The notes below the pieces were generated by a model, which made no database searches, was not told the DNA's origin, and saw only the letters and a program-made list of their open reading frames with translations. 28,308 nucleotides of DNA, from IMG/VR virus record IMGVR_UViG_3300045988_152359. One strand, written 5' to 3'. Each line of letters opens with the position of its first letter. The stretch's first letter is position 1. This stretch comes from a virus (lineage: Duplodnaviria; Heunggongvirae; Uroviricota; Caudoviricetes). This document shows positions 9,948-28,308 of this stretch, one piece after another. Position numbers and translations under genes: made by a program.

Positions 9948-9949
9948 GT

Positions 9950-11718: not shown

Positions 11719-11726
11719 GGATCCTC

Positions 11727-11897: not shown

Positions 11898-13377
11898 CAC
11901 CATTACGTCGAATACGCTGGTTCCGCTGTTTTATGCGGAAATGGATAACCAGGCGGCGAATACTGCACAGGACAGCGGGGCATCGTTGCTGATTGGTCAC
12001 GCCAATAACGGTGCAGAGATTGTTGCCAACAGTCTGGTGCTGATGCCGTCGGCAGACTATGCACGCCAGATTTGTGGTGCGGGAAGTCAGCTGGCGCGTA
12101 TGGTCGAGGCTTATCGCCAGACCGACCCGTTTGGCGAGCTGTATGTGATTGCCGTTCCGGAAGCCACAGGCGCGGCGGCAACGGTTACGCTGACAGTGAC
12201 CGGGGCGGCAACCGAAACCGGCACGGTGAATGTTTATGTGGGACGTACCCGCGTGCAGGCACCGGTGACCAACGGCGATAACGTCACGACGATTGCCAGC
12301 AGTATCAAAGATGCCATTAATGCCGTTCCGGCCCTGCCGTTTACGGCCTCATCTTCGGCAGGCGTGGTCACGCTGACCGCGCGTCATAAGGGGCTTTGCG
12401 GGAATGAAATTCCTGTCAGCCTCAATTACTACGGCTTTGGTGGGGGCGAAGTGCTGCCAGCGGGCGTACAGATTGCTGTGGCGACGGGGAGCGCCGGAAC
12501 GGGCGCTCCGGTTCTCACCGGCGCGGTGGCTGCAATGGCGGATGAGCCGTTTGATTATATTGGCCTGCCGTTCAACGACACGGCCTCCGTTAACACGCTG
12601 GTGACAGAGATGAACGATACCAGCGGTCGCTGGAGCTATGCGCGTCAGCTGTATGGTCATGTGTATACGGCAAAGATCGGCACGCTGTCAGAACTGGTGA
12701 ACGCAGGTGACCAGTTTAACCAGCAGCACATTACCCTGGCGGGATACGAAAAAGAGACCCAGACGCCTGCCGACGAGCTGGCGGCAAGCCGTACCGCCCG
12801 CGCAGCGGTGTTTATTCGCAACGATCCGGCACGTCCCACGCAGACCGGTGAGCTGGTGGGTATGCTGCCTGCGCCGAAGGGGAAACGGTTCACGATGACC
12901 GAACAACAGACCCTGCTGTCTCATGGCGTGGCAACGGCGTATGTCGAAAGCGGGGTGCTGCGCATTCAGCGTGATGTCACCACGTACAGGAAAAACGCTT
13001 ACGGTGTTGTGGATAACAGCTACCTCGACAGCGAGACGCTGCATACCAGCGCGTATGTGCTGCGCAAACTGAAATCCGTCATTACCAGTAAGTACGGGCG
13101 TCACAAGCTTGCCAGCGACGGTACCCGCTTTGGTCCCGGTCAGGCGATTGTCACACCGGCGGTGATCAAAGGGGAACTGCTGGCAACCTACCGTCAGCTT
13201 GAGCGTGCGGGGATCGTGGAAAACTACGAACTGTTTAAGCAGTACCTGGTTGTGGAGCGTGATGCCAGCGATCCGAACCGCCTGAACACGCTGTTCCCGC
13301 CTGACTATGTTAACCAGTTGCGTGTTTTTGCCGTGGTTAACCAGTTCCGTCTTCAGTATTCAGAGGAGTCTGCATAA
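11881..13377 (+). CDS. Contractile tail sheath protein (Mu gpL-like)
   Basis: 498 aa, followed by a small tube gene, the frameshifted chaperone pair and the tape measure gene - the canonical myovirus order. Confidence 0.85.
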   Translation: MTISFNTITSNTLVPLFYAEMDNQAANTAQDSGASLLIGHANNGAEIVANSLVLMPSADYARQICGAGSQLARMVEAYRQTDPFGELYVIAVPEATGAAATVTLTVTGAATETGTVNVYVGRTRVQAPVTNGDNVTTIASSIKDAINAVPALPFTASSSAGVVTLTARHKGLCGNEIPVSLNYYGFGGGEVLPAGVQIAVATGSAGTGAPVLTGAVAAMADEPFDYIGLPFNDTASVNTLVTEMNDTSGRWSYARQLYGHVYTAKIGTLSELVNAGDQFNQQHITLAGYEKETQTPADELAASRTARAAVFIRNDPARPTQTGELVGMLPAPKGKRFTMTEQQTLLSHGVATAYVESGVLRIQRDVTTYRKNAYGVVDNSYLDSETLHTSAYVLRKLKSVITSKYGRHKLASDGTRFGPGQAIVTPAVIKGELLATYRQLERAGIVENYELFKQYLVVERDASDPNRLNTLFPPDYVNQLRVFAVVNQFRLQYSEESA

Positions 13378-13733
13378 TGGCCCGTATCGGGGGAACCTGT
13401 TATTTCAAAATTGACGGTCAGCAGCTATCGCTGACCGGCGGCATTGAGGTGCCCATGAACAGGACGGTCAATGATGACATCATCGGCCTGGACGGTTCAG
13501 TGGACCGCAAGGAAACTCACCGTGCGCCTTATGTTAAAGGGACCTTCAAGGTGCCGAAGAATTTTCCGGTGAGCAAAATCACCTCGTCTGATGAGATGAC
13601 CATCACAGCCGAGCTGGCGAACGGTCAGGTCTATGTACTGTCGTCTGCCTGGCTGCACGGCGAAGCAAACCATAATGCCGAAGAAGGGACGGTTGATCTT
13701 GAGTTCCACGGTGAAGAAGGGGATTACCAGTAA
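13377..13733 (+). CDS. Tail tube protein (Mu gpM-like)
   Basis: 118 aa, ATGA-coupled to the sheath gene. Confidence 0.8.
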   Translation: MARIGGTCYFKIDGQQLSLTGGIEVPMNRTVNDDIIGLDGSVDRKETHRAPYVKGTFKVPKNFPVSKITSSDEMTITAELANGQVYVLSSAWLHGEANHNAEEGTVDLEFHGEEGDYQ

Positions 13734-14002
13734 TGAAAGAGCTTGAGTTAAAGAAACCGATTACCGCTCATGGCGAGACACTCTCCGTACTGGAGTTTGA
13801 TGAGCCCACCGGGAAAGATGTCCGCGAGCTGGGGTATCCCTACCAGATGAATCAGGATGAGTCCGTCAGACTTCTGGCGCATGTGGTATCGAAATACATT
13901 GTGCGGCTGGCGAAAGTGCCGCAAAGCTCTGTCGACCAGATGTCTCCGGCAGACCTGAATGCAGCGGCGTGGCTTGTGGCTGGTTTTTTCCTCCAGGCCT
14001 GA
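13733..14002 (+). CDS. Tail assembly chaperone (G-like, upstream frame)
   Basis: 89 aa immediately before the tape measure gene; ends in a slippery run; overlaps a -1 frame ORF. Confidence 0.75.
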   Translation: MKELELKKPITAHGETLSVLEFDEPTGKDVRELGYPYQMNQDESVRLLAHVVSKYIVRLAKVPQSSVDQMSPADLNAAAWLVAGFFLQA

Positions 14003-14151
14003 CGGCTGAATACCTCACTGATCGCTTCTTTGACTGCGCCAGTTACTGGCGCATTAATCCTTTCGAATTGCTGAATATGCCGATCAGTGAAATTCCCTTG
14101 CTGGTCAGTCAGGCAAACAGGATAGAGCAGGAGAAACGCACACATGGCTGA
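13969..14151 (+). CDS. Tail assembly chaperone frameshift extension (T-like part; expressed as a fusion from 13733 by -1 programmed frameshift)
   Basis: ORF in the -1 frame relative to 13733..14002; slippery heptamer T_TTT_TTC at 13984-13990 within the overlap; ends 8 nt into the tape measure gene. Confidence 0.65.
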   Translation: MACGWFFPPGLTAEYLTDRFFDCASYWRINPFELLNMPISEIPLLVSQANRIEQEKRTHG

Positions 14152-15979
14152 ATTTGAGCTTAAGGCGTTGATCACCGGTGTCGACAGGCTTTCTCCGGCG
14201 CTGTCGAAAATGCAAAAGAAAATCCGGGGATTTAAACGCCAGGCGGAAGAAGCGTCACAGGGTGGGCTGGCGCTTGGTGGCGGACTGGCAGCGGGTCTGA
14301 CGCTTTCCCTGAAATCTTATGCCGATCAGGAAAACGCCGCCACCGGGCTGAAAGTCGCCATGATGGATGCGAACGGCGAGGTCGGAAAGAGCTTTCAGGA
14401 CATCAATAAACTGGCTATTGGCCTGGGTAACCAGCTACCCGGTACAACGGCTGATTTTCAGAACATGATGCAGATGCTGGTGCGTCAGGGGATCCCGGCA
14501 GAAAACATTCTGGGCGGTGTGGGTAAAGCGACGGCTTATCTTGCGGTACAACTGAAAAAAACACCGGAAGCGGCTGCTGAGTTTGCCGCAAAGATGCAGG
14601 ATGCTACCGGAACGGCGTCAGAAGACATGATGGGGCTGTTCGACACTATCCAGAAGGCGTTTTATCTGGGCGTTGACGATACCAACATGTTGTCCTTCTT
14701 CACTAAAACCAGCTCTGTTCTGAAGATGGTGAACAAGGACGGTCTTCAGGCTGCACAGAGCCTTGCCCCCATCAGCGTCATGATGGATCAGATGGGGATG
14801 AACGGGGAGTCGGCAGGTAACGCCCTGCGAAAAGTTATCCAGTCCGGATTAAGCGTTAAGAAAATCAGGGACGTCAATAAAATCATGGCCCGCCAGAAAC
14901 TCGGGGTACAGCTCGATTTTACTGACGGCAAAGGGAGTTTTGGCGGTCTTGATAACATGTTCAGGCAACTGGCAAAGCTGCGAAAACTGACCGACGTTAA
15001 ACGAACTGGTGTACTTAAGGCAATATTTGGTGATGATGCCGAAACCCTTCAGGTGGTCAATGCGCTGATCGATAAAGGAAAGGATGGCTACGATCAGATC
15101 CAGCAGAAGATGAATAAACAGGCCAGCCTGAATAAACGTGTTCAGGCACAGCTTGGTACGCTGTCCAACCTGTGGGAGGCAATGACGGGGACCGCAACTA
15201 ACGGCCTTGCGGCTATTGGCGGCGCATTTTCTGGTGACGCTAAAAATATCACGCAATGGCTGGGGGAGTTGGGGGAGAAATTCACGAAGTTTGCGGATGA
15301 AAATCCCCGGGTTATTCGCGGCGTCGTCGGGCTTGCTGCTGGTCTTGCGATTCTGAAACTGGGATTGATGGGCGTTGGCGGTGCCATCAGTATTGTCAGC
15401 AGGATCATGTCGATGACGCCGATTGGCATGATTGCGACGGCGATAGCCCTGGCTGCGGGATTAATTATCACTAACTGGGATGTTGTCGGACCTTATTTTA
15501 AGAAACTCTGGGAAACCATTGGTCCTTATTTTGAGGCTGGCTGGGAACTCCTTAAGAAAGTTTTTGCCTGGTCGCCGCTGGGGATGGTGATCAATAACTG
15601 GGGGCCGGTTGTTAAGTGGTTTCAGGATATGTGGGACAAGCTGAAGCCAATTATTGAGTGGTTTACCGACAGTTCCGGTGACACGGTCGATGCCATTAAC
15701 TCTGCGCAGTGGGGCGCGGGTGCTTATGATGCTTATGGGACGGGAATACCGGCGCGGGGATACACACCTTATCCGGCGGTAGATCCGGCTCAGTCAAACA
15801 ACGCCTCCGGTGCCACAGGCCCGAATCCCTTCATGATTAACAAAGCTTCTGCGCCAAAAGTTGATGGTGAGATCAAGGTCTCTTTTATGAATTCGCCTCC
15901 GGGTATGCGGGTTATGGAAACGCGATCCAGCGGTTTTGATGTCAGCCATGATGTTGGCTATACGCGCTTTGGCAGGTAA
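14144..15979 (+). CDS. Tail tape measure protein
   Basis: 611 aa, Ala/Gly/Leu-rich helical protein with hydrophobic segments, directly downstream of the chaperone pair. Confidence 0.9.
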   Translation: MAEFELKALITGVDRLSPALSKMQKKIRGFKRQAEEASQGGLALGGGLAAGLTLSLKSYADQENAATGLKVAMMDANGEVGKSFQDINKLAIGLGNQLPGTTADFQNMMQMLVRQGIPAENILGGVGKATAYLAVQLKKTPEAAAEFAAKMQDATGTASEDMMGLFDTIQKAFYLGVDDTNMLSFFTKTSSVLKMVNKDGLQAAQSLAPISVMMDQMGMNGESAGNALRKVIQSGLSVKKIRDVNKIMARQKLGVQLDFTDGKGSFGGLDNMFRQLAKLRKLTDVKRTGVLKAIFGDDAETLQVVNALIDKGKDGYDQIQQKMNKQASLNKRVQAQLGTLSNLWEAMTGTATNGLAAIGGAFSGDAKNITQWLGELGEKFTKFADENPRVIRGVVGLAAGLAILKLGLMGVGGAISIVSRIMSMTPIGMIATAIALAAGLIITNWDVVGPYFKKLWETIGPYFEAGWELLKKVFAWSPLGMVINNWGPVVKWFQDMWDKLKPIIEWFTDSSGDTVDAINSAQWGAGAYDAYGTGIPARGYTPYPAVDPAQSNNASGATGPNPFMINKASAPKVDGEIKVSFMNSPPGMRVMETRSSGFDVSHDVGYTRFGR

Positions 15980-16039
15980 TGAAAAATTAATCTGTTAATG
16001 AGTCCCACTCCGGTGGGATTTTTTATGTACGGAGTTTAT

Positions 16040-17368
16040 ATGACGTGGAAAGACAGACTTCAGGACGCGTCATTTCGCGGTGTGCCGTTTAAGGTTGAAG
16101 AAGAAAGTGCGGGAACCGGTCGTCGTGTGGAAACGCACGAATACCCGAACCGCGACAAACCCTATACCGAAGACCTGGGGAAAATCACTTTCCGCCCGTC
16201 CATCACAGCTTATGTGGTGGGAGATGACTGCTTTGACCAGCGCGATCGCCTGATTGACGCGCTGAATAAACCCGGTCCCGGCACGTTTGTCCATCCGACT
16301 TACGGTGAGCTGAAAGTCTGTGTTGACGGGGAAGTTCGGGTCAGCACATCGAAGAGTGAAGGGCGTATTGTCCGCTTTGACCTGAAGTTTGTCGAAGCGG
16401 GAGAACTCTCTTACCCCACTTCAGGTGCGGCGACGGCGCAGACGCTGATGTCATCCTGTTCTGCACTGGATGACTGCATCAGTGACAGCTTCAGTGGTTT
16501 CAGTATCGATGGCGTGGCAGATTTTGTGCAGAACGACGTCGTCGGTAATGCCAGCACAATGCTTGGGTATGTTTCTGATGCGATGAAAGTGGTGGATTCT
16601 GCCGTATCGGATGCCGCCAGGCTGTTGCAGGGGGATATCTCGGTACTTCTGCCGCCGCCATCGTCAGGCAAAAATTTCGTTGAGCAGGTGCAGAAAATGT
16701 GGCGTACCGGGAAACGCCTTTATGGTAACGCCAGCGACCTGGTCACCATGATCAAAACGCTTTCCGGTGTCAGCCTCGGCAGCGATCTGCAACCGCGCGG
16801 CGTCTGGAAAACGGACAGTAAAACCAACGCCACGGCGACGCAGCAGCGTAACGTGGTTGCCAGCACCCTTCGTACGACCGCAATCAGCGAAGCGGCGTAT
16901 GCCGTCACACGATTGCCTGCGCCCACAACTTCCGCGGTGATGCAGAATGCCACAATGGGGCAGTCAACAACACCCGCGCAGAGCACCGGCTGGCCTTCTG
17001 TCACGCATCCGGCACTGAACAATGCACCGGCGGTGAAAAACACGGTTGACCTGCCAACGTGGGAAGAACTGACCGACATTCGCGACACACTGAATACGGC
17101 AATTGATAAGGAGTTGTCCCGTACAACCAGTGATGCGCTGTTTCTGGCGCTGCGCCGGGTGAAAGCAGATCTGAATGCGGATATCAACACGCGCCTTGAA
17201 CAGTCTGCACGGATCATTCAGCGCACGCCGGATGAGGTTTTACCCGCGCTGGTGCTGGCGGCGACCTTGTTTGATAACGCGGCGCGTGACGCGGACATTA
17301 TCCGGCGTAATGCCATTACGCATCCCGGCTTTGTGCCGGTGATCCCTCTGAAGGTGCCAGTGCAATGA
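16040..17368 (+). CDS. Mu gpN-like DNA circularisation protein (tail/baseplate-associated)
   Basis: N-terminus MTWKDRLQDASFRGVPFKVEEESAGTGRRVETHEYPNRDKPYTEDLG matches the gpN-family motif; GGAG RBS before ATG 16040 (track start 15998 rejected). Confidence 0.8.
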   Translation: MTWKDRLQDASFRGVPFKVEEESAGTGRRVETHEYPNRDKPYTEDLGKITFRPSITAYVVGDDCFDQRDRLIDALNKPGPGTFVHPTYGELKVCVDGEVRVSTSKSEGRIVRFDLKFVEAGELSYPTSGAATAQTLMSSCSALDDCISDSFSGFSIDGVADFVQNDVVGNASTMLGYVSDAMKVVDSAVSDAARLLQGDISVLLPPPSSGKNFVEQVQKMWRTGKRLYGNASDLVTMIKTLSGVSLGSDLQPRGVWKTDSKTNATATQQRNVVASTLRTTAISEAAYAVTRLPAPTTSAVMQNATMGQSTTPAQSTGWPSVTHPALNNAPAVKNTVDLPTWEELTDIRDTLNTAIDKELSRTTSDALFLALRRVKADLNADINTRLEQSARIIQRTPDEVLPALVLAATLFDNAARDADIIRRNAITHPGFVPVIPLKVPVQ

Positions 17369-18444
17369 ACGACAATGTCACGCTACGGGTAAATGGCCGG
17401 GAGTGGAATGGCTGGACATCGGTGCGCATCGGTGCCGGTGTTGAACGACTGGCGCGGGATTTCAGTGTGGAGATCACCCGCCAGTGGCCGGGAGATGAGG
17501 GTATTACCACGCTTCAGTCGCGCATTAAAAACGGTTCAAAAGTGGAGGTGCTGATTGGTGATGAGCTGGTGATCACCGGCTGGGTGGAGGCGACGCCCGT
17601 TCGTTACGATGCCCGTTCGGTCAGCACCGGTATTGCCGGACGTAGTCTGACGGCTGACCTGATTGACTGTGCAGCCGAACCGACACAGTTTAACGGACGC
17701 TCGCTGGTGCAGATTGCGCAGGCGCTTGCTGCGCCTTTCGGCATTGAGGTGGTGAACAGCGGTGCGCCGTCGGGTGTTATTCCTGATGTTCAGCCTGATC
17801 ACGGTGAAACGGTGATTGAGGTAATCAACAAAATACTCGGTCAGCAGCAGGCACTGGCTTACGACGACCCGCACGGCAGGCTGGTGATTGGCGGTATTGG
17901 CTCAACGCGGGCACATACTGCGCTGGTACTCGGGGAAAACATCCTTTCCTGTGATACGGAGAAGAGTATCCGGGAGCGGTTTTCAGTTTACCAGGTGGCG
18001 GGGCAGCGTGCCGGAAACGACGATGATTTCGGTGAGGCCACCACCACCGCGCTGCGAGCCCGCACAGAGGACGCATTTATTGCCCGTTACCGTCCGATGT
18101 ATATCAGGCAGACAGGGCAGGCTACGGGGGCAGGCTGTATTGCCCGTGCGGACTTTGAAGCCCGACTACGGGCGGCGCGGACGGATGAAACCACCTATGT
18201 GGTGCAGGGCTGGCGACAGGGTAACGGTACGCTGTGGCAGCCCAACCAGCGGGTGATTGTCTTCGATCCGGTCTGTGGTTTCGACAATACCGAACTGCTT
18301 GTTTCGGAAGTCACGTTTACTCAGGACCAGAACGGCACCCTGACGGAAATCCGTGTCGGCCCGCCTGATGCTTATCTGCCTGAACCCGAAGCCCCCGGCG
18401 CGCGAAAAAAGAAAAAAGCCAGAGTACAGGAGGACCCGTTCTGA
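17365..18444 (+). CDS. Mu gpP-like baseplate hub / tail protein
   Basis: 359 aa, ATGA-coupled to the gpN-like gene; conserved order N-P-baseplate. Confidence 0.75.
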   Translation: MNDNVTLRVNGREWNGWTSVRIGAGVERLARDFSVEITRQWPGDEGITTLQSRIKNGSKVEVLIGDELVITGWVEATPVRYDARSVSTGIAGRSLTADLIDCAAEPTQFNGRSLVQIAQALAAPFGIEVVNSGAPSGVIPDVQPDHGETVIEVINKILGQQQALAYDDPHGRLVIGGIGSTRAHTALVLGENILSCDTEKSIRERFSVYQVAGQRAGNDDDFGEATTTALRARTEDAFIARYRPMYIRQTGQATGAGCIARADFEARLRAARTDETTYVVQGWRQGNGTLWQPNQRVIVFDPVCGFDNTELLVSEVTFTQDQNGTLTEIRVGPPDAYLPEPEAPGARKKKKARVQEDPF

Positions 18445-18992
18445 TGAGGACGATTGAAGCCATGCAGCGACAACTCCTCGGCCTGATTGGGCGGGCCGTG
18501 GTGAAAAGCATCAGTGCCGCCACGAAATGTCAGACCGTGGATGTGTCCCTGATTGCCGGTGAACCCAAAGCTGGGGTTGAACATCTTGAACCCTACGGTT
18601 TTACCGCAAGGGCAAACAGCGGTGCGGAAGCGGTGGTGTTGTTTCCGGATGGCGACCGTTCTCATGCGGTGGTTGTTACGGTGTCGGACCGGCGCTACCG
18701 CCTGAAAGGGCTGCAGACGGGTGAGGTGGCTGTCTATGACGATCAGGGGCAGTCCGTGACGCTGACCCGGGAGGGGATCGTGGTGGACGGTGCAGGTAAA
18801 ACGATCACGTTTCGCAATGCACCTGAAGCACGTTTTGAAATGGACCTGGAAGTGACAGGACAGGTGAAAGACCTGTGCGACTCCGGCGGCACCACCATGT
18901 CAGCGATGCGGCTTGCCTATAACGGGCATCGTCACAGAGAGAACGGTCAGGGCAGTAACACCGACAAACCTGATAAAGCGATGGAGGCATGA
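18444..18992 (+). CDS. Baseplate assembly protein V-like (spike, Mu gp45-like)
   Basis: 182 aa; position after the gpP-like gene. Confidence 0.7.
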   Translation: MRTIEAMQRQLLGLIGRAVVKSISAATKCQTVDVSLIAGEPKAGVEHLEPYGFTARANSGAEAVVLFPDGDRSHAVVVTVSDRRYRLKGLQTGEVAVYDDQGQSVTLTREGIVVDGAGKTITFRNAPEARFEMDLEVTGQVKDLCDSGGTTMSAMRLAYNGHRHRENGQGSNTDKPDKAMEA

Positions 18993-19417
18993 TGGAACTG
19001 TGGCTGACGGTGAACGGTAAACGCACCTGCGCCAGCGCACCGCTGGATCCGCTGACCCGCGCCGTGGTGATTTCCCTGTTTACCTGGCGGCGGGCGGAGC
19101 CTGATGACAACGCCGACGTCCCGATGGGATGGTGGGGGGATACCTGGCCTGCGGTACAGAATGACCGTTACGGCTCCCGACTGTGGCTGCTTCAGCGCAG
19201 CAAACTGACCAATCAGCTGGTGCAGACGGTAAGGGGGTATATCCGCGAATGCCTGCAATGGATGGTTGATGACGGCGTGGTGTCCCGTATTGATCTGGAT
19301 ATCCGCCGCACCGGGATTAATGAACTGGGTAACAGTATCACTCTCTGGCGTCGTGACGGACCGGTAATGATTTCTTTTGATGATCTGTGGAGTGCGATAA
19401 CGCATGGCGGACAGTGA
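18989..19417 (+). CDS. Baseplate protein, GP46 family
   Basis: 142 aa, ATGA-coupled; conserved position between the V-like and J-like baseplate genes. Confidence 0.7.
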   Translation: MMELWLTVNGKRTCASAPLDPLTRAVVISLFTWRRAEPDDNADVPMGWWGDTWPAVQNDRYGSRLWLLQRSKLTNQLVQTVRGYIRECLQWMVDDGVVSRIDLDIRRTGINELGNSITLWRRDGPVMISFDDLWSAITHGGQ

Positions 19418-20462
19418 ATTTCAGCGCCCGACGCTGGCAGAAAATATCAGTATGCTCCGTAACGATTTATTCGCCAGGCTGGACGTCAGCGACACGCTCC
19501 GGCGCATGGATGAAGACGTGCGGGCAAAGGTGTATGCGGCGGCGCTGCATACGGTTTACGGGTACATCGATTATCTGGCAATGAATATGCTGCCTGACCT
19601 GTGCGATGAGTCCTGGCTGGCGCGACATGCTGCGATGAAACGGTGTCCGCGCAAGGGGGCCACGGCTGCCAGCGGGTATATGCGCTGGGAAGGTGTCAGC
19701 GATGGCCTGAAGGTGACTGCCGGGAGCGTGATTCAGCGCGATGACCTGGTTCAGTACACGGCAACTGCCGATGCAACCAGCTCCGGTGGTGTCCTGCGTG
19801 TGCCGATCACTTGCTCAACTACAGGCGCGGTCGGTAACGCTGACGACGGTACGGCATTAATCCTGGTCACGCCGGTGAATGGTCTGCCGTCTTCCGGTGT
19901 GGCTGACACCCTGACAGGCGGATTTGATACTGAAGAGCTGGAAACGTGGCGCGCCCGCGTCATTGAGCGGTATTACTGGACGCCTCAGGGCGGGGCTGAC
20001 GGGGACTATGTCGTCTGGGCTAAAGAAGTGCCAGGCATTACCCGTGCATGGACATACCGCCACTGGATGGGAACGGGAACTGTCGGTGTGATGATTGCCA
20101 GCAGTGACCTGATTAATCCCATTCCGGAAGAATCAACGGAAACGGCAGCAAGACAACATATCGGGCCACTGGCCCCGGTGGCAGGCTCTGATTTGTATGT
20201 ATTCAGGCCGGTGGCACATACGGTGGATTTTCATATCCGCGTGACGCCGGACACACCAGAAATACGGGCTGCCATTACCGCGGAGTTGCGTTCGTTCCTG
20301 CTGCGTGATGGTTATCCGCAGGGAGAACTGAAGGTGTCACGTATCAGTGAAGCGATTTCCGGTGCGAACGGGGAATACAGCCATCAGTTGCTTGCACCGG
20401 CAGACAATATCTCCATTGCAAAAAATGAACTGGCGGTACTGGGGACGATTTCATGGACGTGA
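19404..20462 (+). CDS. Baseplate J-like protein (Mu gp47-like)
   Basis: 352 aa, position and size typical of baseplate J-family wedge proteins. Confidence 0.8.
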
Positions 20463-21037
20463 CAAACGATGATTACATCCGTCTGTTGTCGGCACTGTTG
20501 CCACCCGGTCCGGCGTGGTCAGCCAGAGATCCGGCGATTGCCGGTGCGGCACCGTCATTAACCCGCGTTCATCAGCGTGCGGATGCCCTGATGCGGGAGC
20601 TGGATCCGCGCACCACCACTGAACTGATAAACCGCTGGGAGCGTCTGTGCGGTCTGCCGGATGAATGTATTCCCGCAGGGACACAGACCCTTCGCCAGCG
20701 TCAGCAACGACTGGATGCGAAGGTTAACCTGGCGGGCGGCATCAATGAGGATTTTTACCTTGCACAGCTTGCTGCCCTGGGCAGACCAGACGCTACCATC
20801 ACGCGATACGACAAAAGCACGTTCACCTGCTCATCTTCCTGTACTGACGCGGTGAATGCGCCGGAATGGCGGTATTACTGGCAGGTCAACATGCCAGCCG
20901 CCACCAACACCACCTGGATGACATGTGGCGATCCCTGTGATTCCGCACTGCGTATCTGGGGCGACACCGTTGTCGAATGTGTGCTTAACAAACTCTGCCC
21001 GTCGCATACCTACGTAATTTTTAAATATCCGGAGTAA
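20453..21037 (+). CDS. Tail protein, Mu gp48 / e14 YmfQ-like
   Basis: 194 aa immediately upstream of the tail fibre gene, the same length as e14 YmfQ as I recall it. Confidence 0.7.
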
Positions 21038-21040
21038 TCC

Positions 21041-21784
21041 ATGCATCGTATAGACACGAAAACCGCGCAGAAGGATAAGTTCGGCGCGGGTAAGAACGGT
21101 TTTACCCGTGGTAATCCCCAGACTGGTACGCCTGCCACCGATCTGGATGATGACTACTTTGACATGTTGCAGGAGGAGCTTTGCAGCGTTGTGGAGACCT
21201 CCGGTGCCAGCCTGGAGAAGGGGCGGCATGACCAGTTGCTTACCGCGCTTCGTGCTCTGCTGTTAAGCCGCAAGAATCCGTTTGGTGATATCAAATCGGA
21301 TGGCACGGTGAAAACGGCTCTCGAAAACCTTGGTTTGGGAGAAGCGGCAAAACGGAATGTGGGCAACGGGGAAAACCAAATCCCTGATATGTCTTTCTGG
21401 ACGGTTACTGGTGGCGATGGAAATTTTGTGATTCGTCAACCTGACGGGCTAATCATTCAGATGGTTACTGTAAGTATAAGCGGCCCAGTGGCGATGAATG
21501 GAATGACTGATAATGCTTATGCCATCACAGGTTCTAATAAGTCTTATATTGCCACAGCCACATTGCCCTTTGTATTTCCTAATAAGGTGCTGGGCGTTAT
21601 CCCTATGGTATCAACAACAGCTTATGGTGGTGTATCCAGTAATATTACAGGTTCATACGCGACTGCGGTTTGTTCTTTTGCCGCTGTCAGGGGGAATAAT
21701 ACGATTGTGTTCAAAGTCGACAAACCACTGAATGCAGCCTTTCCTTCAGATACCAGCGTCTCAGCGTTAATCATTGGACGGTAA
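21041..21784 (+). CDS. Tail fibre protein (constant N-terminal part plus currently expressed variable C-terminal part)
   Basis: 247 aa; the crossover site at 21319-21344 lies in-frame in the gene (encodes LENLGLGE), so the C-terminal about 150 aa are inside the invertible segment. Confidence 0.85.
21319..21344. repeat. Left recombination (crossover) site of the Pin-type invertible segment
   Basis: CTCTCGAAAACC-TT-GGTTTGGGAGAA; inverted copy of the site at 23251-23276 (13-bp identical core GGTTTGGGAGAAG in the reverse complement); resembles gix/cix-type sites with an AAACC-NN-GGTTT core. Confidence 0.75.
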
Positions 21785-21786
21785 TA

Positions 21787-22230
21787 ATGAACTCAGTATT
21801 CTTTTCACCCGGAAGTAAAAGTTTTTATCTGCAGGAATTGTTTCCAGAATATGAGGATGCGGGAACGCTTCCTGATGATGTTATTGAAATTACAAGAGAA
21901 ACATATGAGCAATTTCTTGGGCTGCATCCAGAAGGGAAAGAAATTGGCGCTGACAGTTCAGGACGGCCAGTATGGATTAATTCCCCACCCCCTTCAAAAG
22001 AGGATGAGGTGTTGACGGCTGAAATGAAAAAAATATCTTTGGTTTCTGAAGTCAATACCTACATCAATACTCATCAGTGGCCTGGCAAAGCGGCGATTGG
22101 TCGTCTGAAAAGTGAGGAACTGGCGCAATATAATTTGTGGCTGGATTATCTGGACGCACTGGAACTGGTTGATACCTCCAGTGCGCCAGATATTGAATGG
22201 CCTACGCCTCCGGCAGTTCAGGCCAGATGA
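21787..22230 (+). CDS. Tail fibre assembly protein (Tfa), currently expressed orientation
   Basis: 147 aa directly after the tail fibre gene, inside the invertible segment. Confidence 0.8.
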   Translation: MNSVFFSPGSKSFYLQELFPEYEDAGTLPDDVIEITRETYEQFLGLHPEGKEIGADSSGRPVWINSPPPSKEDEVLTAEMKKISLVSEVNTYINTHQWPGKAAIGRLKSEELAQYNLWLDYLDALELVDTSSAPDIEWPTPPAVQAR

Positions 22231-22804
22231 CATCCGGCGCGGTGCTGGTATCTGTTGCCGTCACCGCGTCAATGTAATCCAGCACAGCGTTAAGTCGGGT
22301 GTTTTCTGTCTGCGTCAGCTTCCGCCCGGCCTGTAATTTCAGTTGAATCAGACTGATGGAAGCCATTGCAGCATCAATCAGCGACTGGCGCTGTGCTTCT
22401 GCCGCTTCTACTGCGGCGCTATGCTGTGCCTCAGTATCGGTCACCCATTTCTCACCATCCCATTTATCGTATGGCGTTAACGGTGCGAGAGTGGTTGTAT
22501 TTTCGGGATAGTCGCCTGGTGCTGTGATTTCTTTAGCATCTCCCGTTTCGGTGTTATAGACAATTTCACCGCGATGGTCTGGCACATATTCCCATGAGTT
22601 AAAATCTGCAGAACGGCAGATTGCATAACCAGTTTTGTATGAGCCAGGAGCATCTAAACAGGAACATGCCGGAATGCCGACACCCACAGCAAGATATTCA
22701 GTTGATGTGAAAATATATTCCCGTGTTTCACCATCATAGTTATAAACCGTAATATTTCCTGCCTGGGTGGCGATAAATTCGTTATTTAATACATCGTAAT
22801 CCAT
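22202..22804 (-). CDS. Alternative tail fibre assembly protein (Tfa'), silent orientation
   Basis: 200 aa on the opposite strand, convergent with and slightly overlapping the plus-strand tfa; paired with the alternative fibre C-terminus. Confidence 0.8.
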   Translation of the reverse strand: MDYDVLNNEFIATQAGNITVYNYDGETREYIFTSTEYLAVGVGIPACSCLDAPGSYKTGYAICRSADFNSWEYVPDHRGEIVYNTETGDAKEITAPGDYPENTTTLAPLTPYDKWDGEKWVTDTEAQHSAAVEAAEAQRQSLIDAAMASISLIQLKLQAGRKLTQTENTRLNAVLDYIDAVTATDTSTAPDVIWPELPEA

Positions 22805-23304
22805 TATGCAGCCCTCACGATATAATTAAAGGCAATGTTACGAGGACGGTTTTCGTTTGCAGTTGGAACAACTCTGGAAGCATCAAATGTTACTCGCTTT
22901 GCATAACCACCTTTAATTGAATCAGATGAAGTATCTCCGATGACGCTGGTTGTAAAAACGCCAGAGTCAGAAGGATAGGTATTAAACCTGACATCTACTA
23001 ATGCACCAATTATATTTCGAATGGTATCTCCCTGTGACGAAAGCAAGCTACGGTTAGTATCAATCCCTCTTCCATCATCCCAGCCACGAATAAACTCACC
23101 GCGTAAATCAGGCAATTTATTTGTCGGGTAAACCTTTGCCAGTTCCGGGTATTCTTCAGCAGAAAAAGCCGCTCCGTTGCATTTCAGCCAGCCTGTTGGC
23201 GGAGTGGCGGAAGGCCACGGAACAGGCACGCCAACGGGTAATGCCGAACCTTCTCCCAAACCAACGTTTATGAAAATGCAGAAATAACGAGCAGATGACA
23301 TCAT
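22804..23304 (-). CDS. Alternative tail fibre C-terminal segment (promoter-less; fused to the constant part after inversion)
   Basis: Contains the tail-fibre motif LPDLRGEFIRGWDDGRG and the in-frame site-encoded VGLGEGS; the reading frame matches the constant part across the crossover site. The part beyond 23264 lies outside the invertible segment. Confidence 0.75.
   Translation of the reverse strand: MMSSARYFCIFINVGLGEGSALPVGVPVPWPSATPPTGWLKCNGAAFSAEEYPELAKVYPTNKLPDLRGEFIRGWDDGRGIDTNRSLLSSQGDTIRNIIGALVDVRFNTYPSDSGVFTTSVIGDTSSDSIKGGYAKRVTFDASRVVPTANENRPRNIAFNYIVRAA
23251..23276. repeat. Right recombination (crossover) site of the Pin-type invertible segment
   Basis: TTCTCCCAAACC-AA-CGTTTATGAAAA; central dinucleotide AA is the complement of TT at the left site; about 55 bp upstream of the invertase start. 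Confidence 0.75.
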
Positions 23305-23330
23305 TCCTGCTTTTGTCAGGGAGATCTACC

Positions 23331-23885
23331 ATGCTTATTGGCTATGTACGTGTGTCAACAAATGACCAGAACACAGATCTACAACGTAATGCGCTGAACT
23401 GTGCAGGATGCGAGCTGATTTTTGAAGACAAGATAAGCGGTACAAAGTCCGAAAGGCCGGGACTGAAAAAACTGCTCAGGACATTATCGGCAGGTGACAC
23501 TCTGGTTGTCTGGAAGCTGGATCGGCTGGGGCGTAGTATGCGGCATCTGGTCATTCTGGTTGAGGAGTTGCGCGAACGTGGCGTTAATTTTCGCAGCCTG
23601 ACGGATGCTATTGATACCAGCACACCGATGGGGCGTTTTTTCTTTCATGTGATGGGGGCCCTGGCTGAAATGGAACGAGAACTGATTGTTGAACGAACAA
23701 AAGCTGGACTGGAGGCTGCTCGCGCACAGGGACGAATTGGTGGACGTCGTCCCAAACTTACACCAGAACAATGGGCGCAGGCCGGGCGATTAATTGCATC
23801 AGGCGTTCCTCGCCAGAAGGTGGCGATCATCTATGATGTTGGTATATCGACACTGTATAAGAAGTTTCCGGTCGGAGATAAATGA
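23331..23885 (+). CDS. pin: Serine DNA invertase (Pin/Gin/Cin/Hin family)
   Basis: 184 aa from ATG 23331: MLIGYVRVSTNDQNTDLQ... (catalytic Ser in VRVSTNDQ) and C-terminal HTH GRRPKLTPEQWAQAGRLIASGVPRQKVAIIYDVGISTLYKKF; the ORF-track start at 23295 is an extension. Confidence 0.95.
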   Translation: MLIGYVRVSTNDQNTDLQRNALNCAGCELIFEDKISGTKSERPGLKKLLRTLSAGDTLVVWKLDRLGRSMRHLVILVEELRERGVNFRSLTDAIDTSTPMGRFFFHVMGALAEMERELIVERTKAGLEAARAQGRIGGRRPKLTPEQWAQAGRLIASGVPRQKVAIIYDVGISTLYKKFPVGDK

Positions 23886-23942
23886 AACCGTAGCACGTCG
23901 TATGCAAGATCGTGCTGCGGTTTATGCTTATCACTTAAAGAC

Positions 23943-24812
<870 letters not shown>

Positions 24813-24891
24813 CTAAGCCTTTGAATTTACAAGTACAAAAAAGATACTTTTCCTCATAATGTGAATTAATTTTATGTTTCGTTTGATGATT

Positions 24892-24957
24892 GGACCGGTC
24901 TCGAAAACCGGAGTAGGGGCAACTCTACCGGGGGGGCAAATCCCCCTCTCTCCGCCA
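24892..24957 (+). pseudogene. 3' two-thirds of tRNA-Ser(CGA), 66 nt - probable prophage attachment-site remnant
   Basis: GGACCGGTCTCGAAAACCGGAGTAGGGGCAACTCTACCGGGGGGGCAAATCCCCCTCTCTCCGCCA: anticodon loop with CGA, long class-II variable arm, T-arm, acceptor 3' strand and CCA. No 5' acceptor strand or D-arm upstream. T-loop reads GGCAAAT instead of canonical TTCAAAT. Confidence 0.8.
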
Positions 24958-25540
24958 CTTTATCAATGACTTATCTCCCGACTTCCCGCCTTGCTTTTCC
25001 TAAACAGAACAATCGTAGAATATTCTTGAAGGGTTAGATCGTCACTGTTTTCTGTTCGATACTGTGACATTCAGCACTTGATTCGCTATGGATCTGACAG
25101 GAAGGTTTCGAGCGAAAATCTGCAGTTATTCAGTCGTTTTCTTATCGGTCACCATTATTCTTTTAGACATTGATCCTACAAAGCTGCCGCAAAGTTGGTG
25201 GTGGGAACTGAAGTTGCGTAGAGAAGGGGTCAATACCCGGAGGCAAACATGGGCTGGCAAAAGTGTAGCGGTATTAGGCGCAGCTATTTAGCCTAGTTAT
25301 GTTTTATGAAAACTTGATATCATATAAGTGTCTTACTTATTGGCTGTAAATAAGGTTTTCTAAGGAATTGTTTCTTTAGTATCATTTGTAACTGTAACGG
25401 AATTTATAATCCTTTACTTTATTTTTACGGTATTTTTTATCACACCCTATTTTTTATGTGGTTTTTTATACTGAAGTTTGGCAAAGTGAACTTTATATGC
25501 ATATACTTCATCCTGGTTTCAGTTAAATTGGGTGGATGAT

Positions 25541-26284
25541 ATGGCAACTACATGTTCAGTTATATTGATTTTGGAGTCCTTTGATGTTTATTTCGGAAAA
25601 GAGAGTGTGTTTCTGGATAGAGGTTTATCTGTACTTGTCGACTCTAGCTATAGAGATTTTTTCCTGACATATCCTGAAAGAGTGATAGTGGCGGATTTTG
25701 GCGCTGAGTTTATTAGTCGCTATTTGAAAGCTAATAACTTAAGGGATATTTCTGATTGTAGGGAATATCCATCTTATTTAAAAATAAACTTTGCTGACTT
25801 CAGTTTAATTAAAGGATTAATTAGTTGGGCTAATCACTGTGCTGAATATATAGAAATTTTTGATGAGTCTATTGCTTTTACATGTCTCTCTGCATTTTCT
25901 TCTGAAAAACAATTTGGAGTATTTCTGTTTGGATGTTTGAAAAGCACAGGGGCTAAAGTTAAAACGATTATTCATACGGATTTATCTGCACCATGGCATC
26001 TTAAGGATATATCATCAAGATTATATCTCAGCGAAAGTTTACTAAAGAGGAAATTGAAAGAAGAGGGGGTATCATTCAGTAAGATCATACTTGATGAGAG
26101 GATGCAAATGGCTGAATATTTACTCAGCACTCGTTGTTATCCTATTAGTAAAGTAGCTAAGGTCTGTGGTTATGCCAGTGTCTCATACTTTACTTATGTA
26201 TTTAGACGTTATTTTGGTGTTTCTCCAAGTCAATACTCTCAGAGGAGTTCAGAAAGTAAAATTCTTACTCACCAGGGAATCTAA
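25541..26284 (+). CDS. AraC/XylS-family transcriptional regulator (AppY/YdeO/GadX-like), AT-rich
   Basis: About 247 aa; C-terminal double-HTH WHLKDISSRLYLSESLLKRKLKEEGVSFSKIILDERMQMAEYLL...VAKVCGYASVSYFTYVFRRYFGVSPSQY; visibly AT-rich with a long AT-rich leader. Start taken as ATG 25541 (the track uses GTG 25532). Confidence 0.85.
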   Translation: MATTCSVILILESFDVYFGKESVFLDRGLSVLVDSSYRDFFLTYPERVIVADFGAEFISRYLKANNLRDISDCREYPSYLKINFADFSLIKGLISWANHCAEYIEIFDESIAFTCLSAFSSEKQFGVFLFGCLKSTGAKVKTIIHTDLSAPWHLKDISSRLYLSESLLKRKLKEEGVSFSKIILDERMQMAEYLLSTRCYPISKVAKVCGYASVSYFTYVFRRYFGVSPSQYSQRSSESKILTHQGI

Positions 26285-26290
26285 TCATTG

Positions 26291-26553
26291 TTCTTGCCCC
26301 CTTATTTCCAGACAGGGGGTGTATCTTAAGTTAACGTTACCCGCTGACGTCGATATTCTCGCGGAGAGCGATAACCCAACGCACTGTGCGGATGGTTTTC
26401 ATTGTAATGTTCGATCGCCACTGCAAGATTATGCAATGCCGTTCTTATATTCGGTTTCGGCATGAACGCGATGTAGTCTTCCTTCATCGTTTTCACGAAC
26501 CTTTCTGCCATTCCATTACTCTGAGGACTGCTGATTACCCATGAGGAGTACAA
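26291..26553 (-). mobile_element. IS2-like (IS3-family) insertion sequence remnant: terminal repeat plus 3' end of the transposase gene, truncated
   Basis: Terminal sequence TTGCCCCCTTATTTCCAGACA at 26294-26314 resembles the IS2 inverted repeat; minus-strand ORF 26326..26553 encodes the transposase C-terminus; similarity ends abruptly near 26553. Confidence 0.65.
26326..26553 (-). pseudogene. IS3-family transposase (OrfB/InsD-like), C-terminal fragment
   Basis: 75-aa ORF ...[56 protein letters not shown]...; lacks the upstream catalytic (DDE) region. Confidence 0.7.
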
Positions 26554-26773
26554 TTAAACGGGTTAATCAGTTTCTCCATTTGAAAGAAAAAAGACTTCTG
26601 TACTGTTTGATATCACCGCTATTTTCTTATTTTCTGTGCAGGTCGTAGTGGGACAAAACTGAGACACATAAGGCCTCACAATGGCTTGCAAGGCTTTACA
26701 TGTTTTGATGTGGTGGGACGTGTGAGCGCAGTGTTGATGGGGTAATACTTTGAATTAGAAGCGGATTCTTATG

Positions 26774-26819
26774 ATTCGTAATGCGAAGGTCGTAGGTTCG
26801 ACTCCTATTATCGGCACCA
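26774..26819 (+). pseudogene. 3' 46 nt of tRNA-Thr(CGU) - second attachment-site remnant
   Basis: ATTCGTAATGCGAAGGTCGTAGGTTCGACTCCTATTATCGGCACCA: anticodon loop (CGT) through T-arm, acceptor 3' strand and CCA; no 5' half upstream. Confidence 0.75.
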
Positions 26820-27426
26820 TCAAGAAAATCAATAACTTAGCTTAACTTCTCTAAGAAATTGTATCTTCTGTTATCACTTACAAACGCCTATACGTTGTTA
26901 TGGGCTTTGGTAGTGTAACACGTATGGGCGAGTAGTTCCCAGGCTCAACCTCGTAACAAGTTCCTTTGAAGCTGGAAGACGTGCCACCGTCTCTAAACCT
27001 TCTACCAAAACTCTTAGCAAGATGTTCCACACCTGGCGCGGTGTCCAATGATGCTACACGTCGAGATGACGTCGCAGAGGATAAACAGGCTAAATGATGG
27101 GAAGAGTTTTAAGTGCAATAGTGGATTAAAGCCCACCTCTTCAAAACCTAACTTGATCGGGAAAGAATCAAGCTCTAGCACGGTTTCGTCCACCGGAGTA
27201 CAACGGGTGCCTGATAAGAGAAGAACTGCTAAGACTTCATAGCTTTTGTGAAAAAGCCCTTTTTAGTGGATATGCCTACGGCGCTTATTTTTTGGTATAA
27301 CCATCAAAGGCGCTTTATGGCTCCTATTGTCTTGAAAATGTATCTTTACTTGTATTGTGTTTTATGCGTAGTCTCCCTGTGTAGTATGTAACTTGTTAAT
27401 TTTCATATGAATACAGAGGCAACACG

Positions 27427-27537
27427 ATGAAAAACATTGCAGCTATAAAACGTAATAACCGCAAGATTCACGCTCGTAAGTTCCTGTCTACGCCAGAGGG
27501 AAAAGCCTGTCTACGCCAGAGGGAAAAGCCTGGCTAG
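27427..27537 (+). CDS. Small ORF (35 aa as read) disrupted by a 23-bp tandem duplication; inferred ancestral product about 50 aa, basic
   Basis: GAGG RBS 7 nt before ATG 27427; MKNIAAIKRNNRKIHARKFLSTPEGKA...; removing one repeat copy restores ...WLERKQRENEERKLLSELKWLKD, ending at 27602; an imperfect long hairpin and a T-tract follow. Confidence 0.4.
   Translation: MKNIAAIKRNNRKIHARKFLSTPEGKACLRQREKPG
27484..27529 (+). repeat. Perfect 23-bp direct tandem duplication (2 copies)
   Basis: CTGTCTACGCCAGAGGGAAAAGC at 27484-27506 and again at 27507-27529. Confidence 0.95.
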
Positions 27538-27885
27538 AGCGTAAACAGCGAGAGAACGAAGAAAGAAAACTCCTTAGTGAGTTGAAATGGCTTAAGGATT
27601 GAATCACCAGTAGGCGCATAACACATCCAGCAATCAAAGATGTGTTTGTGCGCCTGATAGTGAAATTATTAAAGTTTTTTAGTTAATGTAGCCATTGCAT
27701 GAACGATGATCGCTAGTGAATCGATTTTATCTCGAGGGGTAAAATAGATGAGGTATATGATGGTAACAATTACAGCTAAAGTAATTGTGGTTCTGCAGGT
27801 TTTTAAAATGGATAAGATAAAGCGCATAGATACCCCCTATTGATTTAACAACAACAAGGTATCATTTATTTTTTATTGCATGCAA

Positions 27886-27907
27886 TGTGCAAATTTTCAC
27901 ATATAAT
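27886..27907 (+). promoter_or_regulatory. CRP-like site (TGTGC-N6-TCACA) abutting a consensus -10 hexamer (TATAAT)
   Basis: TGTGCAAATTTTCACA at 27886-27901, then TATAAT at 27902-27907; no obvious downstream gene on the plus strand. Confidence 0.25.
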
Positions 27908-28152
27908 AGCTTACTATTCACTTTGCATGGTGTCAACAAGATGATGTGTTGTTTTGTTTGATTTGTTCAAGATAATATTTCATTTTCTCATCTGTATAAC
28001 TTGTGTTTTAGATAATTTCACTAATTGTAAAAGTTACGTATTGCTTAATAGCTGCCTTTTTATCTGAAATCGGCGCAAACGTGATCAATGTTTAACGCGA
28101 AGATCAGCGGCGTCAGGTCCACGCAGCGACAATTCTCAAATATCAGGAGGAA

Positions 28153-28308
28153 TTACGCTTCCTGCTCTTTCTTGATACGTTGCACCGTCTGTGTGCTGAC
28201 ACTGAAATCTTTTGCTACGCTCCGAATTGATCCACCATTCGCGAGAGCGGCAACAATTCCCGCTCGATCAATTGCTTTTCCATTACCACGTTTTGCTATA
28301 CGTCCAGC
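28153..28308 (-). CDS. Serine recombinase (resolvase/invertase family), C-terminal HTH end; partial - the gene continues beyond the window
   Basis: 52 in-frame codons to a TAA at 28153-28155: ...GRIAKRGNGKAIDRAGIVAALANGGSIRSVAKDFSVSTQTVQRIKKEQEA, matching the G-R-x-x-K plus HTH pattern of resolvase C-terminal domains. Confidence 0.5.
   Translation of the reverse strand, partial: AGRIAKRGNGKAIDRAGIVAALANGGSIRSVAKDFSVSTQTVQRIKKEQEA

What the first reader, a model, noticed from the sequence alone, without database searches (positions are those of the whole stretch)
26774..26819. Second, different tRNA fragment (tRNA-Thr CGU 3' end) about 1.8 kb downstream - composite island architecture
A 46-nt 3' piece of tRNA-Thr(CGU) sits in the same orientation as the tRNA-Ser fragment. 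Between the two lie only the AT-rich AraC regulator and the IS2-like remnant. Two att-type remnants from different tRNAs so close together imply successive integration and decay events: a heavily eroded thrW-type island carrying the regulator, with the prophage integrated nearby or into it.
Basis: partly seen in the sequence, partly recalled or inferred. Interest (0 to 1): 0.45.

Follow-up and report, generated by a model that had tools for sequence, protein, structure and literature searches.

The report
Right attachment site of thrW prophage
The 46-base tRNA-Thr piece is the ordinary right-hand attachment scar (attR) of the SfV-type prophage that fills this window, butted against a second element integrated earlier at the same tRNA gene; this layout is already annotated in reference E. 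coli genomes.

Summary
Window 26774-26819 is 46/46 identical to the 3' end of thrW and letter-for-letter the published att core of phages SfI/SfII/SfV/SfX/P22. The interpretation needs correcting. The 240 nt to its left (26534-26773) are the P arm of phage attP. The DNA to its right is 100% identical to the sequence directly following an intact thrW in a prophage-free strain. So the 46-mer is attR (P-core-B') of the SfV-like prophage occupying window 1-26819. In related genomes (BE311, 2018-10-2CC, O157 Sakai) the other end of the prophage is proA, intact thrW, then an SfV-type integrase. The AraC regulator (98% to Sakai ECs_0287, probably PatE) is not on an eroded thrW island. It is prophage cargo in the slot where Shigella phages carry gtr genes. 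The tRNA-Ser piece is not a local integration scar. It comes with 275 nt of native serU flank, in a cassette also found in lambda-type phages. A composite does exist, but on the other side: window 26820 onward starts a separate ~13-kb element with its own integrase and a 19-nt thrW repeat. Sakai's Sp1/Sp2 boundary has the same arrangement. This is ordinary and already known.

The parts
1..24891 (+). Body of an SfI/SfII/SfV-type myovirus prophage, left end cut by the window: porin moron, lysis genes, terminase, head, contractile tail, tail fibres with pin invertase, GIY-YIG gene
   Evidence: 97-98% nucleotide identity to SfI, SfII, SfIV, SfV and vB_EcoM-689R6 over about 4100-21400. Same gene order in E. 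coli prophages at thrW.
24892..24957 (+). 3' 66 nt of tRNA-Ser(CGA) serU, with two T-loop substitutions; a passenger fossil, not a local att site
   Evidence: 64/66 to K-12 serU nt 25-90. No second copy at the far end of homologous prophages.
24958..25235 (+). Native chromosomal DNA from the serU-yodB intergenic region
   Evidence: Window 24892-25235 is 97% identical over 344 nt to K-12 serU plus its downstream flank. It equals the attR side of prophage SerU-LTIIb, which is followed by yodB.
24896..26536 (+). Cargo cassette (serU piece + flank + AraC gene + IS2 remnant) shared among temperate phages
   Evidence: 98.4-98.8% identical to phages PhiR70_1, ev099 and mEp332, where it lies between tail-fibre genes and a lambda-type int. 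At least 80% of a 756-nt probe (serU plus window 24958-25623, i.e. the cassette's left end up to the start of the AraC gene) is present in 524 complete E. coli genomes.
25541..26284 (+). AraC/XylS-family regulator, YdeO/GadX-like; ortholog of Sakai Sp1 ECs_0287 (probably PatE)
   Evidence: NCBIfam YdeO 8.8e-43 and GadX 7.3e-32, both below the equivalog cut-offs. 244/248 aa identical to ECs_0287. Z0321/PatE is the regulator of CP-933H/OI-8 (PMC10877973, PMC2907692).
26326..26553 (-). C-terminal remnant of the IS2 transposase (InsD/TnpB)
   Evidence: NCBIfam IS2 TnpB 5.5e-28, profile positions 224-290 of 301. Annotated as a partial 'integrase core domain' pseudogene in homologous genomes.
26534..26773 (+). 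P arm of the phage attachment site (attP-derived half of attR)
   Evidence: 97.5% to PhiR29_1 from 26534, 91% to phi458 from 26581, 95-96.5% to the SfI/SfV attP region from 26649.
26774..26819 (+). 46-bp att core, identical to the 3' end of thrW. It is the attR core of the SfV-like prophage, and its last 19 nt are also the left repeat of the downstream element
   Evidence: 46/46 to thrW. Identical to the published SfI/SfII/SfV/SfX/P22 core (PMC3636060). A 19-nt thrW repeat closes the downstream element in L012 and L005.
26820..28308 (+). Left end of a second, ~13-kb thrW-integrated element (B' side of attR). It carries a small ORF with a 23-nt tandem duplication (27483-27536) and the 3' end of a serine recombinase gene (28153-28308, minus strand)
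   Evidence: The first 100 nt are 100/100 identical (98.5% over all 1489 nt) to the DNA that starts immediately after intact thrW in prophage-free strain cM8a. In L012 and L005 the element ends with a tyrosine integrase and a 19-nt thrW repeat, next to yagP'/paoD. The recombinase C-terminus is 50/51 identical to the L012 protein.

Best explanation
The 46-mer is the core of attR, the right prophage-host junction left by integrase-mediated site-specific recombination of an SfV/SfI-type temperate phage into the tRNA-Thr(CGU) gene thrW. The phage attP carries a copy of the last 46 nt of thrW. Recombination with the chromosomal gene rebuilds an intact thrW at the left junction (attL), next to int. 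It leaves the displaced 46-nt copy at the right junction, between the phage P arm (26534-26773) and whatever lay downstream of thrW beforehand. Here that downstream DNA was not core chromosome. It was a ~13-kb integrative element already resident at thrW, with its own integrase and a 19-nt core. The incoming phage therefore inserted between thrW and that element, making a tandem array in which the 46-mer is the shared junction. The AraC (PatE-like) regulator, the IS2 remnant and the tRNA-Ser piece form a cargo cassette inside the prophage, in the slot between the tail-fibre genes and attP where Shigella Sf phages carry gtrABC. Shown: sequence identities, junction anatomy, the empty-site comparison, and the far-end architecture in related genomes. 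Inferred: the order of arrival of the two elements, the present functionality of attR, and the presence of thrW plus int upstream of this particular window.
For: (1) The core is identical to thrW nt 31-76 and to the experimentally defined 46-base att core of SfI, reported as shared with SfII, SfV, SfX and P22 (PMC3636060). (2) The left arm is 95-97.5% identical to the attP P arm of sequenced phages SfI, SfV, phi458 and PhiR29_1. The right arm is unrelated to the phage int-side arm. (3) Empty site: in E. coli cM8a the order is proA, intact thrW, then immediately the homolog of window 26820-28308 (first 100 nt 100/100 identical, 98.5% overall). (4) Occupied sites with both ends visible: in BE311 and 2018-10-2CC the order is proA, thrW (76 nt), int 14 nt later and convergent (98% aa identity to SfV Int), prophage, GIY-YIG, serU piece, AraC, IS2 remnant, P arm, 46-mer. 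2018-10-2CC has the same right flank as the window. (5) SfI and SfV have the order tail fibre, cargo (gtr), about 200 bp, attP core, int, which predicts exactly this attR. (6) O157:H7 Sakai annotates the same thing: Sp1 (thrW, int ... pinE, ECs_0285, ECs_0287, partial IS3) ends, and Sp2 begins, inside a second copy of the 46-mer at 310599-310644. (7) The downstream element is bounded by thrW/46-mer on the left and a 19-nt thrW repeat after its own integrase on the right. (8) Tandem integration of an incoming Sf phage at the thrW-proximal att of a resident element has been shown experimentally (PMC3306764).
Against: The window does not reach the left end of the prophage, so intact thrW and int are not seen in this genome itself. 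The collection holds no genome identical to the window (best 96.8-98.2% over the prophage). Homology to the Shigella phages' P arm covers only the proximal 125 of about 200 nt; the full 240 nt match only E. coli phages. Whether attR is still recombination-competent is untested.
Confidence: 0.93

Rival explanations
1. One reading: the 46-mer is the terminal repeat of a separate, heavily eroded thrW island that carries the AraC regulator, and the prophage is a different element integrated beside or into that island, possibly through the tRNA-Ser piece.
For: Two different tRNA pieces lie 1.8 kb apart in the same orientation. The interval is AT-rich (GC 0.32-0.35 against 0.525 for the prophage) and contains an IS remnant.
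Against: There is no second thrW repeat and no phage-integrase remnant between the prophage structural genes and the 46-mer. The DNA abutting the 46-mer on the regulator side is a phage attP arm. Homologous prophages are flanked by thrW repeats (76 nt and 46 nt) and hold only one serU piece. The serU piece comes with serU chromosomal flank and travels inside virion genomes of phages with a lambda-type integrase. Sakai's annotation places the regulator inside Sp1.
Confidence: 0.04
2. The 46-mer belongs only to the downstream ~13-kb element, as its left att repeat, and its adjacency to the prophage is coincidental. In that case the prophage would be a defective remnant with no att of its own.
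For: The last 19 nt of the 46-mer are repeated at the far end of the downstream element, just after its integrase (L012 15143-15161, L005 29259-29277).
Against: That element needs only 19 nt, yet the repeat here is the full 46 nt that Sf/P22-type integrases use. It is joined to a 240-nt phage P arm. In cM8a the element sits directly after intact thrW with no extra 46-mer. The two readings are not exclusive: the best explanation already treats the 46-mer as a shared junction.
Confidence: 0.02
3. The piece is a decayed duplicate tRNA gene or a chance similarity.
For: None beyond the absence of a full tRNA.
Against: It is a 46/46 exact match ending precisely at the published att core boundary, and 0 of 100 shuffles gave any match.
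Confidence: 0.01

Closest known systems
Sp1/Sp2 tandem prophages at thrW in E. coli O157:H7 Sakai (Sp1 corresponds to CP-933H / O-island 8 of EDL933)
   Same: Same locus and same right-end module: tail fibre, pinE, GIY-YIG (ECs_0285), serU piece, AraC (ECs_0287, 98% aa), partial IS, P arm, 46-mer. Window 23250-26536 is 97.5% identical and 26648-26821 is 98.3% identical. The 46-mer is the annotated boundary between two tandem elements (PMC8190617).
   Different: Sp1 is a 10.6-kb deletion remnant with a pseudogenised int, whereas the window's prophage retains a full set of SfV-type structural genes. The downstream partner in Sakai is a P4-like element (Sp2) with a different flank, not the ~13-kb element found here.
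attP/attR of Shigella flexneri serotype-converting phages SfI, SfII, SfIV, SfV, SfX (and Salmonella P22)
   Same: Identical 46-bp core, a homologous P arm, the same geometry (tail fibre, cargo, attP, int), and integration into thrW next to proA.
   Different: The cargo is a PatE-like AraC cassette instead of gtrABC O-antigen modification genes. The host is E. coli-like, with an E. coli-type downstream flank.
Experimentally produced tandem SfI-SfX lysogens at thrW (PMC3306764)
   Same: An incoming thrW phage inserts at the thrW-proximal att of a resident element, leaving an internal att core between the two.
   Different: There both elements are Sf phages using the same 46-bp core. Here the resident element has an unrelated integrase (24% to IntF) and a 19-nt core.
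attR of cryptic prophage CP4-6 in E. coli K-12
   Same: The same 46-mer (49 nt in K-12) marks the right end of an element integrated at thrW.
   Different: CP4-6 has its integrase (intF) on the attR side and an unrelated arm sequence. The window's downstream element is not CP4-6: integrase 24% identity, resolvase not YagL.

Membership tests
attR junction of a thrW-specific SfV/SfI/P22-type prophage | 46-bp core identical to the 3' end of thrW and to the published phage att core | tested here: met
   46/46; identical to the core printed in PMC3636060.
attR junction of a thrW-specific SfV/SfI/P22-type prophage | Phage-derived P arm on the prophage side of the core | tested here: met
   Window 26534-26773 matches PhiR29_1 (97.5%), phi458 (91%) and SfI/SfV (95-96.5%) attP left arms.
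attR junction of a thrW-specific SfV/SfI/P22-type prophage | The non-phage side equals what follows thrW in a strain lacking the prophage (empty-site test) | tested here: met
   In cM8a, intact thrW is followed immediately by the homolog of window 26820-28308; the first 100 nt are 100/100 identical.
attR junction of a thrW-specific SfV/SfI/P22-type prophage | Partner attL: intact thrW plus the int-side arm plus an SfV-type integrase at the other prophage end | tested here: inconclusive
   This lies outside the window, so it is not seen in this genome. It is met in BE311, 2018-10-2CC and Sakai, which carry the same right end.
attR junction of a thrW-specific SfV/SfI/P22-type prophage | Int/Xis-dependent excision that regenerates attP and attB | not testable with these tools
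   Needs induction and junction PCR, or read-level evidence.
Functional tRNA-Thr gene | Complete cloverleaf detected by tRNA models | tested here: not met
   ARAGORN found 0 genes. Rfam gave no tRNA hit at this site. Only nt 31-76 of the tRNA are present.
   There is a single thrW-derived repeat in the window. The only 'integrase core' ORF is an IS2 transposase remnant. The left boundary of the segment is a serU piece, not a thrW piece.
Tandem (composite) array of integrative elements at one tRNA gene | A second element beyond the internal core, with its own integrase and terminal repeat | tested here: met
   In L012 and L005 the homolog of the window's right flank extends about 13 kb to a tyrosine integrase and a 19-nt thrW repeat, next to yagP'/paoD. 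The window itself holds only the first 1.5 kb.

The most novel reading that the evidence does not exclude
The most novel reading still open concerns the neighbouring tRNA-Ser piece, not the tRNA-Thr piece. The cassette (serU 3' 66 nt + 275 nt of serU-yodB chromosomal DNA + patE-like AraC gene + IS2 remnant) may be the footprint of an aberrant, lambda-bio-style excision of a serU-integrated prophage that captured its own attR and host flank. It would then have spread by recombination into the tail-fibre/attP cargo slot of phages with unrelated integrases (thrW-type SfV-like, lambda-type ev099/mEp332). That would make it a traceable natural case of specialised-transduction DNA becoming a widely shared phage moron that carries an acid-resistance/virulence regulator.
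Probability: 0.3. Interest if true: 0.3.

Novelty: already known. Interest (0 to 1): 0.08.

Why it matters
It matters mainly for correct annotation. The 46-mer fixes the right boundary of the prophage at 26819 and puts the PatE-like regulator and the serU fossil inside the phage as mobile cargo. It also shows that a second, independent element begins at 26820. thrW is a well-documented integration hotspot, and the tandem arrangement here matches the reference O157 Sakai genome and laboratory Sf-phage lysogens, so no new biology is implied.

Tried and rejected
(1) I tried to reach the left end of the prophage in the source genome by exact-protein lookup of the window's leftmost gene, the porin at 95-1177. 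The protein occurs in more than 17,000 collection blocks, in unrelated lambdoid prophages, so this led nowhere. (2) I looked for the window's exact source among 5,426 complete E. coli genomes. None was found: best 96.8-98.2% over the prophage, and only one genome (401651) covers at least 80% of the right-hand 3.6 kb. In 401651 an ISAs1-associated deletion has removed the prophage and thrW, so it says nothing about the left end. (3) I tested whether the downstream element is CP4-6. It is not: integrase 24% to IntF, resolvase not homologous to YagL. (4) I tested whether the lambdoid phages carrying the cassette integrate at serU. ev099's integrase is lambda-type, its genomic matches carry no tRNA-Ser, and ev099 holds a single serU piece, so the piece is not its att site. 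(5) I tested whether any genome has an intact serU fused to the AraC gene. All 25 listed hits start at serU nt 20-25, none at nt 1 (only the 25 listed rows were inspected). (6) Rfam in E-value mode gave only weak, sub-threshold hits on the serU piece and nothing on the thrW piece. (7) The PatE paper itself (PMC3416394) is not held, so the PatE = ECs_0287 equivalence rests on locus descriptions in PMC10877973 and PMC2907692.

Full report
OBSERVATION. Window 26774-26819 reads ATTCGTAATGCGAAGGTCGTAGGTTCGACTCCTATTATCGGCACCA. Compared with K-12 thrW (tRNA-Thr CGU, fetched), it equals nt 31-76 of the gene, 46/46. Identity ends exactly at the 46th base. The string occurs once in the window, and none of 100 dinucleotide-preserving shuffles gave a match even with 3 mismatches allowed. 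ARAGORN and Rfam find no complete tRNA anywhere in the window.

WHAT THE 46-MER IS. The first 24.8 kb of the window are a myovirus prophage, 97-98% identical to Shigella phages SfI, SfII, SfIV and SfV over the packaging, head and tail genes. Those phages integrate into thrW. The SfI paper prints the experimentally determined att core, reported as shared with SfII, SfV, SfX and P22, and it is letter-for-letter the window's 46 nt (PMC3636060). In the SfI and SfV genomes the order is tail fibre, cargo (gtrABC), about 200 bp, attP core, then int convergent 15 nt downstream. After integration this predicts an intact thrW next to int at one end. At the other end it predicts tail fibre, cargo, P arm, 46-mer, then host DNA.

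JUNCTION ANATOMY. Base-by-base comparison shows that the left arm of the window's 46-mer is phage attP DNA. It is 97.5% identical to E. coli phage PhiR29_1 from 26534, 91% to phi458 from 26581, and 95-96.5% to SfI/SfV from 26649. The right arm is unrelated to the phages' int-side arm. Instead, its first 100 nt are 100/100 identical, and all 1489 nt are 98.5% identical, to the DNA that begins immediately after an intact thrW in E. coli cM8a. In that strain the order is proB, proA, thrW, then the flank, with no SfV-like prophage. That is an occupied-versus-empty site comparison, and it defines the window's structure as P-core-B', i.e. attR.

THE OTHER END. The window does not include the left prophage end, and no genome in the collection is identical to it. 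An exact-protein lookup from the leftmost gene was uninformative because that porin is ubiquitous. Three genomes carrying the same right-end module do show the whole element. In BE311 and 2018-10-2CC the order is proA, thrW (76 nt), a tyrosine integrase 14 nt later and convergent (98% aa identical to SfV Int), xis, lambdoid early genes, lysis, structural genes, tail fibre, pin, GIY-YIG, serU piece, AraC, IS2 remnant, P arm, 46-mer. 2018-10-2CC also has the window's exact right flank. These prophages are bracketed by thrW repeats (76 and 46 nt) and contain only one serU piece. This excludes entry through a serU-type site.

THE REGULATOR AND THE tRNA-Ser PIECE. Window 24892-25235 is 97% identical to K-12 serU nt 25-90 plus 275 nt of its native downstream flank towards yodB. 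The same stretch forms the attR side of the serU prophage SerU-LTIIb. The block 24896-26536 (serU piece, flank, AraC, IS2 remnant) is 98.4-98.8% identical in phages PhiR70_1, ev099 and mEp332. In ev099 it lies between the tail-fibre genes and a lambda-type int, and it is the only serU-derived sequence there. The cassette's left end (at least 80% of a 756-nt probe reaching the start of the AraC gene) occurs in 524 complete E. coli genomes. In the listed hits it always begins at serU nt 20-25, never with an intact tRNA. So the serU piece is a passenger fossil within a mobile cargo cassette, and its two T-loop substitutions fit decay. The regulator is YdeO/GadX-like and 244/248 identical to ECs_0287 of Sakai prophage Sp1. 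The regulator of the equivalent EDL933 prophage CP-933H/OI-8 is Z0321 = PatE, a known prophage-encoded activator of acid resistance (PMC10877973, PMC2907692, PMC10057817). I did not test that equivalence by sequence. Other thrW phages hold different cargo in the same slot: gtrABC in Sf phages, and an omptin/Xre/acetyltransferase set in PhiR29_1.

THE REAL COMPOSITE. In cM8a and 401651 the DNA homologous to window 26820 onward continues for about 13 kb. It includes a small serine recombinase (whose C-terminus is the window's last ORF, 50/51 identical), capsid- and baseplate-like genes and a tyrosine integrase. It ends with a 19-nt repeat of the thrW 3' end, next to yagP'/paoD. This is a separate integrative element that uses a shorter core. 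It is not CP4-6 (integrase 24% to IntF, resolvase unrelated to YagL). The window's 46-mer is therefore the shared junction of a tandem array: thrW, SfV-like prophage, 46-mer, 13-kb element, 19-mer, yagP'. The flank right of the 46-mer differs between strains. CH4794 has an integrase pseudogene plus a type I R-M/AbiE island, BE311 has another integrase, and Sakai has the P4-like Sp2. The P arm and 46-mer stay constant. This is as expected if the same phage family repeatedly enters thrW ahead of whatever is resident. Such tandem entry at the thrW-proximal att has been produced in the laboratory with SfI and SfX (PMC3306764).

COMPARISON WITH THE KNOWN. The O157:H7 Sakai reference annotates exactly this arrangement. 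Prophage Sp1 runs from within thrW to 310627 and Sp2 starts at 310628. The second copy of the 46-mer lies at 310599-310644, with the same P arm (98.3%) and the same pin/GIY-YIG/serU-piece/AraC/IS module (97.5%). [quoted passage not shown] VERDICT. The fragment is real and is an att remnant, and the locus is composite. But it is the ordinary attR of the prophage in the window, not the trace of an eroded regulator-bearing island. The tRNA-Ser piece is imported cargo, not a second local scar. The finding is already known and of low interest. The only mildly novel thread is the apparent origin of the PatE cassette from captured serU-locus DNA, which I followed only partly.

Noticed in passing
window 24892-25235 (within cassette 24896-26536): The tRNA-Ser piece is followed by 275 nt of genuine serU->yodB chromosomal DNA. 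The whole cassette recurs at 98-99% identity in lambda-int phages ev099, PhiR70_1 and mEp332. It looks like the footprint of an aberrant excision of a serU prophage that later spread as a moron. The piece has two T-loop substitutions relative to serU (GGTTCAAAT to GGGGCAAAT).
   Followed up: partly
window 25541-26284: The AraC-family regulator is 244/248 aa identical to Sakai Sp1 ECs_0287. It is probably the acid-resistance/LEE regulator PatE (Z0321, CP-933H/OI-8). The equivalence is inferred from locus descriptions and was not sequence-tested.
   Followed up: partly
window 26820-28308; L012 2190-15161; L005 15001-29277: A ~13-kb uncharacterised integrative element sits downstream of thrW. It has a small serine recombinase, capsid- and baseplate-like genes, its own tyrosine integrase (24% to IntF) and a 19-nt thrW repeat. 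It could be a cryptic prophage or a satellite.
   Followed up: partly
window 27483-27536: A 23-nt tandem duplication (CCTGTCTACGCCAGAGGGAAAAG, 2.3 copies) is absent from the homologous sequence in strains cM8a and 401651. It frameshifts the small ORF starting at 27428.
   Followed up: yes
L001 11135-11338 (strain CH4794); K-12 NC_000913.3 about 297255-297380: The DNA immediately right of the attR 46-mer in CH4794 is annotated as the C-terminal fragment of an integrase pseudogene. It is homologous to the flank right of K-12's CP4-6 attR. This appears to be a fossil of yet another thrW-integrated element under the present ones.
   Followed up: partly
L012 1-75 and L013 (strain 401651): An ISAs1 element abuts the serU piece. 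The prophage, thrW and proAB are missing, and an Rhs/T6SS region is joined there instead. This looks like an IS-associated deletion that left only the cassette, the 46-mer and the downstream element.
   Followed up: partly
window 21041-23885: Tail-fibre and tail-fibre-assembly genes lie in opposite orientations next to a pin-type invertase (23295-23885). This is the usual invertible host-range switch of e14/Mu/P1-type tails.
   Followed up: no
window 95-1177 (minus strand): An NmpC-like porin gene sits between the Q antiterminator region and the lysis genes. The identical protein is listed in more than 17,000 blocks of the public assembly collection, in many unrelated lambdoid prophages.
   Followed up: partly
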